Origin: Gammaproteobacteria bacterium
GTDB lineage: Bacteria > Pseudomonadota > Gammaproteobacteria > BTQY01
DNA: 64,000 nucleotides
Reading direction: 5' to 3'
Assembly (NCBI GenBank): GCA_036986115.1
Contig: BTQY01000001.1
Coordinates: 43,807-107,806, forward strand
The translations under genes were made by a program, and so were the position numbers. Shown here in pieces: positions 43,091-46,755 of this stretch. The number at the start of each line of letters is the position of its first letter. Positions within the stretch are counted from its first letter, which is position 1. The notes below the pieces were generated by a model that saw only the letters and a list, made by a program, of their open reading frames with translations, made no database searches and was not told the origin of the DNA.

Positions 43091-46000
43091 TTGAGCGAAG
43101 TGATGCAGAGAAAAAAACTTGGTATATCAGGATTTACTTATAAAGATCTGTTTACGCAAGATGGTTTACAAAAACTCGATAATGAGTTTGTTCTCTATCT
43201 GAAACAATCAGATGAGGTCCTTTACTCACAATTACTGGACTATCGTTCTAAAGCTGATCCCATAGCGGGGGGATCCTTGTCCACCAGTCTGCTGGTTCTT
43301 TCCTGTGCACCAATACTTGAAGCATTTGTCGCTGAACTATTTGAAATTAAAGAAGAAACCAGGCAGGCAAGAGAAAGCACTCTTTCCCACGATGTCATTA
43401 TCTCATTCAAAAAGACCTTTGTGCTGCGGCGCGCACGACGACGCCTGTTAAAAAAAGAAGCGATTGAAACCTTTGATGAGCTTGACCGCTGGCTGGATCA
43501 GGCGCTCGCAGAACACACAATAGATGACCCGGATCAGGAACGGGCCGTGTCGTTGCTTGGTGAGCTTTTGCTATCTGACCAGGATAACAATAAAGACCAG
43601 ATTGAATTGTTAACACGCTGGTGCATTCGTGCCATGACCACCCCTGAGGGACAAACCAGGGTCAGCGACTGGGTCTGCTTTCAACTGCCGCAAGGTCTGG
43701 ATTACGCATCGTTAGTACCTGTGCAGGAACTTGCAGGAGACAAATTCAATCGCTTACAAGCGCAACCCGATAATTATAGATTACGTGATGGCTTCAAACT
43801 CACCGACACACGAATGAATGCCCGCCAGATACAGAATGAAGTCAATTACTGCGTTTACTGTCACAAGAATGAAGGTGATTACTGTTCGAAAGGCTTTCAC
43901 GAAAAAAAAGGTGAGCCGGAAAAAGGATTCAAAAAAAATCCACTTGATGTAACACTCACTGGCTGCCCACTAGGTGAAAAGATATCTGAAATGCAGGCGC
44001 TTAAGCGAGACGGCCATGCAATCGCGGCCCTTGCAACGATCATGATTGACAATCCTATGTGTCCTTCAACGGGGCACCGGATTTGTAACGATTGCATGAA
44101 GGGGTGTATTTATCAAAAGCAGGAACCGGTTAACATCCCCGAAATTGAAACACGCTGTCTCACCGACGTGTTGTCACTGCCCTGGGGTGTGGAAATATAT
44201 GACCTGTTGACCCGTTGGAATCCGTTAAGACAGAAACAATGGTTGCCTAAGCCTTACAATGGCTTAAACGTGCTTATTACAGGTATGGGCCCCTCCGGAT
44301 TTACGCTGGCACACCATCTTTTGATGGAAGGGTTCGCAGTGGTCGGCACGGATGGTCTGAAAATCGAACCACTTCCGCGGACACTCATCGACAACCCTGT
44401 TGAACATTACAGTGACATAGAAGATCAGTTAGACGAACGAATCATGACCGGTTTTGGCGGTGTCACAGAATATGGCATTACCGTACGTTGGGACAAGAAT
44501 TTTCTAAAATTAATCTATCTCACACTGATGCGCCGGCCTTATTTCCAGGTATTTGGTGCTGTACGTTTCGGTGGAACCATTAGAGTGGAAGATGCCTGGG
44601 AACTGGGTTTTGACCATGTCGCTATTGCAGTCGGTGCTGGTCTGCCGCAGGCCTTACCCGTGCCCGGGAGTTTGGCGCCCGGAATGCGACAGGCAAATGA
44701 TTTTCTTATGGCCTTGCAGCTTAGCGGTGCGGCCAAGGCCTCCAGCCTGGCTAATTTACAAATCAGGTTACCCGCAGTTGTCATCGGTGGCGGTCTGACT
44801 GGCATCGACACGGCAACGGAAGTCCAGGCCTATTACATTCAGCAAGTAGAAAAGTTGCTCTACCGATTTGAAAAACTGGTAGAGACCATTGGAAAGGACG
44901 CAATCTACCAGCAGTTAGATGAAGTGTCGCGATTGATTCTGGAAGAACAACTTGCCCATGGGAACCTGGTAAAAGAAGAACGTCAGCGGGCATCGAGCAA
45001 AAAAGAAGAACCGGATTTTATTTCTTTGATCCGAAGCTGGGGTGGTGTCACTGTTGCCTACAGACGAAATATGAATGAATCACCCGCGTACCGGAGTAAC
45101 CATGAAGAAGTCAGGAAGGCGCTGGAAGAAGGTATTTATTATGCGGCCGGCATCGAACCTCTCGAAGTCAAAGTCGATCAGTTCGGTCATTGCGAATCGT
45201 TGCTATGTGTAGTGCGCGAAAAAGATAAAGATGGGAATTGGTACAATACAGATAAAAAGTTCGATTTGCCTGCTCGCGGTATCTTTGCCGCTACAGGGGC
45301 ACGACCTAATGTGGCCTATTCATTCGAACATCCAAAAAGGTTTTTAAAGGAAAACGGCCATTATCAAACGTTTAATCTGGAAAACAATAAACTGATATCA
45401 ACACCGACCGCAGAACATATCAAGAAAGACAATTTTGGTGCATTTACCTCCTATGAGGATCAGGACAGCAAGCTAAATCACCGCGTCACATTTATCGGAG
45501 ACACTCACCCGGTGTTTAATGGCAATGTCGTAAAAGCGGTTGCATCCGGCATGCGGGTGTATCCTGAAATAGTGGCATCTTTTGGTCAACTTGCATCGCA
45601 ACAAGGTAATGAGGAGACATACCAGGCATTCAGTAAAAAGATCGCGTGGCTTTTTACTGCCACTATCGACGATGTTATCCGACATAATCCAACAACGCTT
45701 GAATTGAGAATCCAGGCGCCGATGGCGGCAAGGCGTTTCAAACCCGGACAATTTTTTCGTCTACAGAACTATGAAAGTTCAGCGCCCGTTATTGGTGATA
45801 CCACATTACAAACGGAAACTATGGCGCTAACAGGCGCTCTGGTCGATAAGGAAAAAGGCCTGGTTTCTCTCATGATAATGGAAAAGGGCACGAGCTCAAG
45901 AATCTGCGCCACCTTGAAAAAAGGCGATCCTGTTTCCCTGATGGGCCCAAGTGGGGTACGTATGAGAATTCCGGATAACAGGGAAAATATCCTGATAGTC

Positions 46001-46645
46001 GGCGATACACTTTGCATCCCGCATATTCTGGGTGTTGGGCCAGCCATGCTCGAAGCAGCTAATAAAGTGTGCTTTATCCTGCATCTTGATTCTGCCGATG
46101 AGTTGTTTTGCCAGCAACAACTGGAGCAATCAGCAACAAATATAGTGTGGAATGTCAAAAAAGGTGAATTGATAAAATCCAGTCGTCCCCATGATATCTC
46201 CACATGCGGTGACTTACTGGATGTTGTTAATCAGTTTTCAGATGGCTCACTTCCTGGTGATATTAATAATACGTTTGCGGCTAAAGACATTGATAGAATT
46301 ATCATCGTCGGTAATCAGGAACTGGTACGCAGTCTGCGCGATATATACGAAAGTAAATTAATGAACACCATGCCCAAGGTCGGCCTGAACGTCACCGCAT
46401 CCATCAGTACACCAATGCAATGCATGCTAAAAGGGGTTTGCTCGCAATGTTTACAATGGCAAATAGACCCACAAACCGGCAAACGCACCAAAGCCGTCTT
46501 TAGTTGCTCATGGCAAGATCAGCCCCTGCATATGGTTGATCTGGATAACTGGAAAGACAGACTCGGACAAAACCGGTTACAGGAGGGGATATCTAATCTT
46601 TGGTTAGACCACCTGTTTAAACTGCAGGAGATAGAAAAAATATAG
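43091..46645 (+). CDS. Large multidomain Fe-S flavoprotein: unknown N-terminal domain + GltD/NfnB-like module + PyrK/FNR-like module with a C-terminal [2Fe-2S] motif
   Basis: Cys clusters (CVYCHKNEGDYC; NPMCPSTGHRICNDCMKGC). Two Rossmann GxGxxG motifs (ITGMGPSGF; VIGGGLTGID). C-terminal FNR-like domain and CMLKGVCSQC...C. 1184 aa. Confidence 0.75.
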   Translation: MSEVMQRKKLGISGFTYKDLFTQDGLQKLDNEFVLYLKQSDEVLYSQLLDYRSKADPIAGGSLSTSLLVLSCAPILEAFVAELFEIKEETRQARESTLSHDVIISFKKTFVLRRARRRLLKKEAIETFDELDRWLDQALAEHTIDDPDQERAVSLLGELLLSDQDNNKDQIELLTRWCIRAMTTPEGQTRVSDWVCFQLPQGLDYASLVPVQELAGDKFNRLQAQPDNYRLRDGFKLTDTRMNARQIQNEVNYCVYCHKNEGDYCSKGFHEKKGEPEKGFKKNPLDVTLTGCPLGEKISEMQALKRDGHAIAALATIMIDNPMCPSTGHRICNDCMKGCIYQKQEPVNIPEIETRCLTDVLSLPWGVEIYDLLTRWNPLRQKQWLPKPYNGLNVLITGMGPSGFTLAHHLLMEGFAVVGTDGLKIEPLPRTLIDNPVEHYSDIEDQLDERIMTGFGGVTEYGITVRWDKNFLKLIYLTLMRRPYFQVFGAVRFGGTIRVEDAWELGFDHVAIAVGAGLPQALPVPGSLAPGMRQANDFLMALQLSGAAKASSLANLQIRLPAVVIGGGLTGIDTATEVQAYYIQQVEKLLYRFEKLVETIGKDAIYQQLDEVSRLILEEQLAHGNLVKEERQRASSKKEEPDFISLIRSWGGVTVAYRRNMNESPAYRSNHEEVRKALEEGIYYAAGIEPLEVKVDQFGHCESLLCVVREKDKDGNWYNTDKKFDLPARGIFAATGARPNVAYSFEHPKRFLKENGHYQTFNLENNKLISTPTAEHIKKDNFGAFTSYEDQDSKLNHRVTFIGDTHPVFNGNVVKAVASGMRVYPEIVASFGQLASQQGNEETYQAFSKKIAWLFTATIDDVIRHNPTTLELRIQAPMAARRFKPGQFFRLQNYESSAPVIGDTTLQTETMALTGALVDKEKGLVSLMIMEKGTSSRICATLKKGDPVSLMGPSGVRMRIPDNRENILIVGDTLCIPHILGVGPAMLEAANKVCFILHLDSADELFCQQQLEQSATNIVWNVKKGELIKSSRPHDISTCGDLLDVVNQFSDGSLPGDINNTFAAKDIDRIIIVGNQELVRSLRDIYESKLMNTMPKVGLNVTASISTPMQCMLKGVCSQCLQWQIDPQTGKRTKAVFSCSWQDQPLHMVDLDNWKDRLGQNRLQEGISNLWLDHLFKLQEIEKI

Positions 46646-46725: not shown

Positions 46726-46755
46726 CCGCCTGCGATGTCACTGCACCGCAGGCGG
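46726..46755. terminator. Hairpin between convergent genes, possibly a bidirectional terminator
   Basis: CCGCCTGCG-(12 nt)-CGCAGGCGG. Weak T/A tracts on both sides. Confidence 0.35.

What the first reader, a model, noticed from the sequence alone, without database searches (positions are those of the whole stretch)
43091..46645. 1184-aa single-polypeptide fusion of GltD/NfnB-like and PyrK/FNR-like modules with an uncharacterised N-terminal domain of about 250 aa
In NfnAB and SudAB these two modules are separate subunits. Here they appear fused in B-then-A order.

The protein has a GltD-like Fe-S region, two Rossmann GxGxxG motifs, and a C-terminal FNR-like domain ending in a CxxxxCxxC...C [2Fe-2S] motif.

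An extra N-terminal domain has no recognisable motifs.

The gene is divergent from an MBL-lipoprotein/TlpA operon. It could be an electron-bifurcating-type or sulfide dehydrogenase-type oxidoreductase with a new partner domain.
Basis: partly seen in the sequence, partly recalled or inferred. Interest (0 to 1): 0.55.

Follow-up and report, generated by a model that had tools for sequence, protein, structure and literature searches.

The report
Single-chain Nfn-like iron-sulfur flavoprotein (RP005 type)
The gene is real and intact and encodes a large redox enzyme in which two normally separate electron-transfer subunits are joined behind an extra helical domain, but this design is already catalogued, occurs in at least about 600 bacterial species, and has never been tested biochemically.

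Summary
The ORF at 43091-46645 (+) is intact. The likely start is ATG 43103, giving 1180 aa.
- an all-helical N-terminal domain
- a GltD/NfnB-like module with two [4Fe-4S] sites, FAD and NADPH sites
- a PyrK/NfnA-like module with FAD and a C-terminal [2Fe-2S] site

The fusion is not new. An identical protein is in GenBank as "FAD-dependent oxidoreductase". The N-domain is Pfam PF27156 (RP005_N, evidently named after a protein called RP005, which I take to be Rickettsia prowazekii's). The best NCBIfam match is NF005128/PRK06567, below its equivalog cutoff. Full-length colinear relatives occur in at least 598 species genomes across at least six phyla. "GltD-UbiB chimeras" were described in Rickettsiales in 2013, and B-then-A fused Nfn homologs in 2019.

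No neighbouring gene is conserved, so the MBL/TlpA link is local coincidence.

The closest solved relatives are the Nfn subunits. Three things differ from Nfn: the [2Fe-2S] site is all-Cys, the Fe-S motifs are re-spaced, and the second NAD(H) loop is degenerate in this clade.

The most likely function is a self-contained, NADPH-linked electron-transfer enzyme wired like Nfn. Whether it bifurcates, and what its acceptor is, remain unknown. Verdict: an ordinary member of a known but uncharacterised family.

The parts
43091..46645 (+). Complete ORF (1184 aa from TTG 43091; probable true start ATG 43103 giving 1180 aa; stop TAG 46643-46645). Monocistronic: divergent gene upstream, convergent gene downstream.
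43118..43675 (+). N-terminal all-alpha domain (aa 10-195), Pfam PF27156 RP005_N. About 10 helices. It is the least conserved part of the protein. It contains a conserved basic helix, FKKxFVxRRARRRLLKK (aa 104-122, net charge +8 here).
43676..43840 (+). Linker (aa 196-250) with the invariant R-D-G-F-x-L-T-D-x-R motif (aa 232-241). It is ordered in the full-length model (block means mostly about 80-92, dipping to 72 at aa 231-240). It is disordered (pLDDT 42-59) when the N-domain is modelled alone. It therefore probably packs on the catalytic core.
43841..44215 (+). Fe-S domain (aa 251-375), a variant of Fer4_20 / NfnB domain I. There are seven invariant Cys (254, 257, 265, 292, 332, 335, 339), plus the conserved E353 (97% or more of 76 members), which aligns with the Glu of the Nfn 'Gx2ER' motif. 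This fits two [4Fe-4S] clusters. A family-specific insert of about 26 aa lies between Cys3 and Cys4.
44216..45640 (+). GltD/NfnB-like FAD and NADPH domains (aa 376-850). FAD loop G398xGxxG403. Invariant GGVxEYGITVRWDKNF with R466 aligned to the Nfn Arg at flavin N5. NADPH loop G566GGLTG571. Y657-R658-R659 aligned to the Nfn YRR 2'-phosphate site. A family-specific helical hairpin insert spans aa 585-650 (nt 44843-45040).
45641..46390 (+). PyrK/NfnA-like FNR module (aa 851-1100). FAD beta-barrel with PGQFFR890LQN, E909...T914 and G952PSG955. The NAD-binding subdomain has a glycine loop that reads GDTLCIP (aa 971-977) here, against GGGLGNA or GGRLGAA in most of the family.
46391..46642 (+). C-terminal [2Fe-2S] site (C1111, C1117, C1120, C1139; the first three invariant and C1139 in 75 of 76 members; all-Cys) followed by a long terminal helix (aa 1162-1178), as in NfnA.
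46726..46755 (.). GC-rich 12-bp-stem hairpin between the two convergent stop codons. The scan flags it as terminator-like on the - strand only; it might also end the RP005-type gene, which is a guess.

Best explanation
This is an intact, stand-alone gene for a member of the RP005-type family. These are single-chain iron-sulfur flavoproteins with three parts: an RP005_N helical domain, an NfnB/GltD-like module and an NfnA/PyrK-like module.

Shown here:
- The polypeptide keeps every ligand set needed for two [4Fe-4S] clusters, a [2Fe-2S] cluster and two flavins.
- It keeps an NADPH site of the NfnB type.
- It is predicted to fold as one compact body whose two catalytic modules superpose on the large and small subunits of NfnI.

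Inferred:
- It works as a self-contained Nfn-like electron-transfer enzyme.
- NADPH reduces the flavin of the GltD-like module.
- From that flavin, one path runs through the two [4Fe-4S] clusters to a low-potential one-electron partner. The partner is most plausibly an acidic ferredoxin or flavodoxin that docks near the N-terminal domain and its conserved basic helix.
- A second path runs through the [2Fe-2S] cluster to the second flavin in the FNR-like module.

Not established:
- whether the two paths are energetically coupled (true flavin-based bifurcation)
- whether the second flavin still exchanges hydride with NAD(H) in this clade.

My confidence that it belongs to this family and has this architecture is about 0.95. 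My confidence in Nfn-like pyridine-nucleotide:ferredoxin chemistry is about 0.45, and in true bifurcation about 0.2-0.25.
For: Family and architecture:
- Best NCBIfam hit is NF005128/PRK06567: E 7e-191, covering aa 23-996.
- Precomputed Pfam on the identical protein P0001 is PF27156 + PF07992, and PF27156 is named RP005_N.
- The N-domain is found only at the N-terminus. Every hit above 900 aa is 934-1250 aa long, most of them 1000-1250, and there are 718 clusters.

Structure:
- AF2 model: pLDDT 85.4, pTM 0.87.
- Foldseek matches (TM normalised to the target): NfnI-L 5jca_L 0.76, Xfn-L 5vj7_A 0.78, T. maritima NfnB 4ylf_B 0.79, NfnI-S 5jca_S 0.87, GltD 6s6s_E 0.74.
- The family profile hits Nfn subunits at E about 1e-17, but GltD only at 6e-4.

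Conserved residues:
- Seven invariant Cys plus E353 in the Fe-S region, and four Cys in the C-terminal site (three invariant, C1139 in 75 of 76), across 76 members from several phyla.
- R466 aligns with the Nfn Arg at the b-FAD N5. Y657-R658 align with the Nfn YRR NADP 2'-phosphate site.

Genomic context:
- No conserved neighbour, so the enzyme is self-sufficient or has an unlinked partner.
- The literature says it is kept in nearly every Rickettsiales genome, and a Coxiella-like endosymbiont carries it. That argues for a housekeeping redox role.
Against: - No member of this family has been tested biochemically in the literature I could search.
- The [2Fe-2S] site is all-Cys (C-x5-C-x2-C-x18-C). 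NfnA has the Asp-containing motif DGTGMCGxCR, which gives it a +80 mV potential.
- The second Fe-S motif lacks the 'PQE' spacer of NfnB. The first is expanded from Cx2Cx4Cx3CP to Cx2Cx7Cx26CP.
- The glycine-rich NAD loop of the FNR-like module is GDTLCIP in the window clade and GNQxSxA in Legionellales. NAD(H) binding at the second flavin is therefore doubtful here.
- By my background knowledge, most carriers are aerobes, in which an Nfn-type reaction has no established role.
- No ferredoxin or flavodoxin gene is linked.
- I could not read the model coordinates. The position of the N-domain relative to the distal cluster is assumed, not measured.
Confidence: 0.55

Rival explanations
1. It is a non-bifurcating NADPH-dependent reductase for an unidentified substrate, either a small molecule or a protein. 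The substrate would be bound at the interface of the N-terminal domain, the RDGFxLTD linker and the Fe-S domain. This is analogous to how GltD, DPD or SudA wires deliver electrons to a second active site. The FNR-like module would be a second entry or exit point, or a structural remnant.
For: - The RDGFxLTDxR motif just before the Fe-S domain is invariant. It is ordered only in the full-length model.
- Several Nfn signatures tied to bifurcation energetics are altered: the Asp ligand, the PQE spacer and the NAD loop.
- The Nfn review states that close Nfn homologs such as NfnII/Xfn are not NAD-dependent and that function cannot be read from sequence.
Against: - The N-domain is the least conserved part (mean top-residue frequency 0.43 against 0.77 for the Fe-S domain). 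It has no conserved Cys, His or acidic cluster typical of a catalytic site.
- The [2Fe-2S] and FAD-barrel motifs of the FNR module are strictly kept, so that module is not vestigial.
Confidence: 0.28
2. It is the electron-input subunit of a larger enzyme whose catalytic partner is encoded elsewhere in the genome, as GltD serves GltB or PreT serves PreA.
For: - It shares the fold and Fe-S wire with GltD and the N-terminal half of DPD.
- The absence of a conserved neighbour does not exclude an unlinked partner.
Against: - No partner gene recurs in 82 neighbourhoods spanning several phyla, whereas to my knowledge GltD and PreT are normally operonic with their partners.
- The literature says the protein is retained in nearly every Rickettsiales genome, and a Coxiella-like endosymbiont has it. 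The Ehrlichia paper states that E. chaffeensis lacks GOGAT.
- The extra N-domain and the fused FNR module already occupy the termini.
Confidence: 0.1
3. The database name is literally true: a bifunctional glutamate synthase beta subunit / 2-polyprenylphenol hydroxylase that makes glutamate or hydroxylates a ubiquinone precursor.
For: Only the inherited name of NF005128/PRK06567 and its use in an Ehrlichia metabolic table.
Against: - GltD family models score far below their cutoffs: TIGR01317 35.8 against 447.7 bits, and TIGR01318 22 against 483.
- The family profile is much closer to Nfn subunits than to GltD.
- There is no glutamine amidotransferase or GltB-like module.
- The 'hydroxylase' label appears simply to denote the FNR/PyrK-like reductase fold.
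- The family also occurs in Acidobacteriota and Myxococcota. By my background knowledge these use menaquinone rather than ubiquinone.
Confidence: 0.03
4. It is a novel, locus-specific fusion functionally tied to the divergent MBL-lipoprotein/TlpA operon, or an assembly or frameshift artefact joining two genes.
For: In this window the gene is divergent from a SoxH-related MBL and a TlpA-like gene, and it sits among sulfur-handling genes.
Against: - The same colinear architecture occurs in at least 598 species genomes.
- An identical protein is on a 123-kb public contig.
- The ORF has no internal stop.
- The MBL/TlpA neighbours are not found next to relatives, and even a 73%-identical relative has different genes on the one flank its contig preserves, downstream.
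Confidence: 0.02

Closest known systems
[quoted passage not shown]
   Same: - Same two modules and same cofactor inventory: b-FAD plus NADPH site plus two [4Fe-4S] clusters; a-FAD plus [2Fe-2S] cluster.
- Best sequence and fold matches: TM 0.76-0.79 for the large subunit and 0.87 for the small subunit.
- The Arg at the b-FAD N5 and the YRR NADP site are conserved.
   Different: - One polypeptide in B-then-A order, with an extra 250-aa N-terminal region.
- All-Cys [2Fe-2S] site instead of Asp+3Cys.
- Fe-S motifs re-spaced: Cx2Cx7Cx26CP, and CxxCx3C without PQE.
- A helical hairpin of about 65 aa inserted in the NADPH domain.
- The NAD loop of the small-subunit module is degenerate in this clade.
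- Only 15-22% identity.
- By my background knowledge the carriers are mostly aerobes.
NCBIfam NF005128 / PRK06567 and Pfam PF27156 RP005_N (Rickettsiales 'GltD-UbiB chimera', e.g. E. chaffeensis ECH_0778)
   Same: Same overall architecture, including the N-terminal domain. HMM match E 7e-191 over aa 23-996. The Pfam RP005_N domain is assigned to the identical protein.
   Different: - It scores 637 bits against an equivalog cutoff of 1072, so it is a more distant subfamily, as are nine other diverse family representatives.
- It is about 150 aa longer than the 1031-position Rickettsiales model.
- Function is unknown for both.
'Pattern C' fused Nfn homologs (Mobiluncus curtisii type; NCBIfam NF009415/PRK12779, about 944 aa)
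   Same: Single chain with the NfnB-like part first and the NfnA-like part, carrying [2Fe-2S], at the C-terminus. Uncharacterised.
   Different: Only a weak match (E 1.6e-25, 89 bits against a cutoff of 1519). Those proteins are about 240 aa shorter and are much closer to clostridial NfnAB; the review reports 40-90% identity.
Glutamate synthase small subunit GltD and the N-terminal half of dihydropyrimidine dehydrogenase (PreT)
   Same: Fe-S domain plus FAD/NADPH two-Rossmann fold. TM normalised to target is 0.74 for GltD 6s6s_E. For DPD it is only 0.35-0.38, because only its N-terminal half can match.
   Different: There is no GltB or PreA partner module or gene. Family models score far below cutoff. 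A fused FNR-like module and the N-domain are present instead.
PyrK (dihydroorotate dehydrogenase B electron-transfer subunit)
   Same: FNR-like FAD barrel plus NAD domain plus a C-terminal all-Cys [2Fe-2S] site. PyrK's all-Cys ligation is from my memory, not tested here. NCBIfam PyrK models hit at 1e-6 to 3e-5.
   Different: Fused to an NfnB-like module rather than partnered with PyrD. The Pfam DHODB_Fe-S_bind and FAD_binding_6 models do not detect it.

Membership tests
RP005-type family (Pfam PF27156 RP005_N + Pyr_redox_2; NCBIfam NF005128-related) | N-terminal RP005_N domain | tested here: met
   PF27156 is precomputed on the 100% identical protein P0001 and on all 120 listed homologs. The name RP005_N is shown. 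The local Pfam copy lacks this model.
RP005-type family (Pfam PF27156 RP005_N + Pyr_redox_2; NCBIfam NF005128-related) | Colinear N-domain, GltD-like module and FNR-like module in one chain of about 1000-1250 aa | tested here: met
   Relatives match across about residues 10-1184 in at least 598 genomes.
NCBIfam NF005128 / PRK06567 equivalog (Rickettsiales protein) | Whole-protein score at or above the curated cutoff of 1072 bits | tested here: not met
   636.6 bits. It is related, but not an equivalog member. Nine other diverse representatives also fall below the cutoff.
[quoted passage not shown] | NfnB-like fold with b-FAD, NADPH site (YRR) and Arg at flavin N5 | tested here: met
   TM 0.76-0.79 to 5jca_L, 5vj7_A and 4ylf_B. 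R466 and Y657-R658 are aligned and invariant.
[quoted passage not shown] | Fe-S motifs RCx2Cx4Cx3CPV and GRVCPQExQCx3Cx13Gx2ER | tested here: inconclusive
   All seven Cys and the final Glu (E353) are kept. The spacing differs: Cx2Cx7Cx26CP, and GHRICNDCMKGC with the PQE spacer absent.
[quoted passage not shown] | Asp-containing [2Fe-2S] motif DGTGMCGxCR in the small subunit (high-potential cluster) | tested here: not met
   The motif here is PMQC-MLKGV-C-SQ-C...C. It has four Cys and no Asp at the ligand position.
[quoted passage not shown] | NAD(H) site on the small-subunit module (GGGVGVA-type loop) | tested here: inconclusive
   The window clade reads GDTLCIP. Many other family members keep GGGLGNA or GGRLGAA.
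[quoted passage not shown] | Ferredoxin- and NAD+-coupled NADPH oxidation (bifurcation activity) | not testable with these tools
   This needs purified enzyme assays.
Glutamate synthase small subunit (GltD) | Score above the TIGR01317/TIGR01318 cutoffs and partnership with GltB | tested here: not met
   35.8 against 447.7 bits, and 22 against 483 bits. No GltB-like neighbour in 82 loci.
Dihydropyrimidine dehydrogenase / PreT-PreA | Presence of the DHODH-like TIM-barrel (FMN) module or a PreA partner | tested here: not met
   Only the N-terminal half of DPD aligns (TM to target 0.35-0.38). The C-terminal module is FNR-like instead.
PyrK-type electron-transfer subunit | Pfam DHODB_Fe-S_bind / FAD_binding_6 / NAD_binding signatures | tested here: not met
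   No Pfam hit on aa 851-1184 even at E at or below 10. The similarity is seen only with NCBIfam, PDB sequences and fold.

The most novel reading that the evidence does not exclude
The RP005-type proteins would be single-chain, oxygen-tolerant relatives of Nfn. They would let aerobic and obligately intracellular bacteria (Rickettsiales, Coxiella, Legionellales, many soil and sulfur-oxidising lineages) generate low-potential reduced ferredoxin or flavodoxin directly from NADPH. The likely mechanism would be flavin-based bifurcation onto NAD+ or another high-potential acceptor. The fold-novel N-terminal helical domain and its basic helix would serve as the docking platform for the acidic carrier. 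In the window clade, the degenerate NAD loop would mean that the high-potential branch has been rewired to a different acceptor.
Probability: 0.18. Interest if true: 0.65.

Novelty: new member of a known kind. Interest (0 to 1): 0.3.

Why it matters
For this window it matters little. The gene is one more copy of a widespread, already catalogued architecture, and its local neighbours say nothing about its role.

The family itself is a genuine gap.
- It is a protein of about 130 kDa with five redox cofactors.
- The literature reports it in nearly every Rickettsiales genome, and it is present in Coxiellaceae and in hundreds of free-living, mostly aerobic species.
- It carries a misleading database name, and I found no biochemical study of it.

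If it proves to be an aerobic Nfn-type enzyme, that would extend flavin-based bifurcation, or at least Nfn-like wiring, well beyond anaerobes. It could also identify the missing ferredoxin reductase of several intracellular pathogens.

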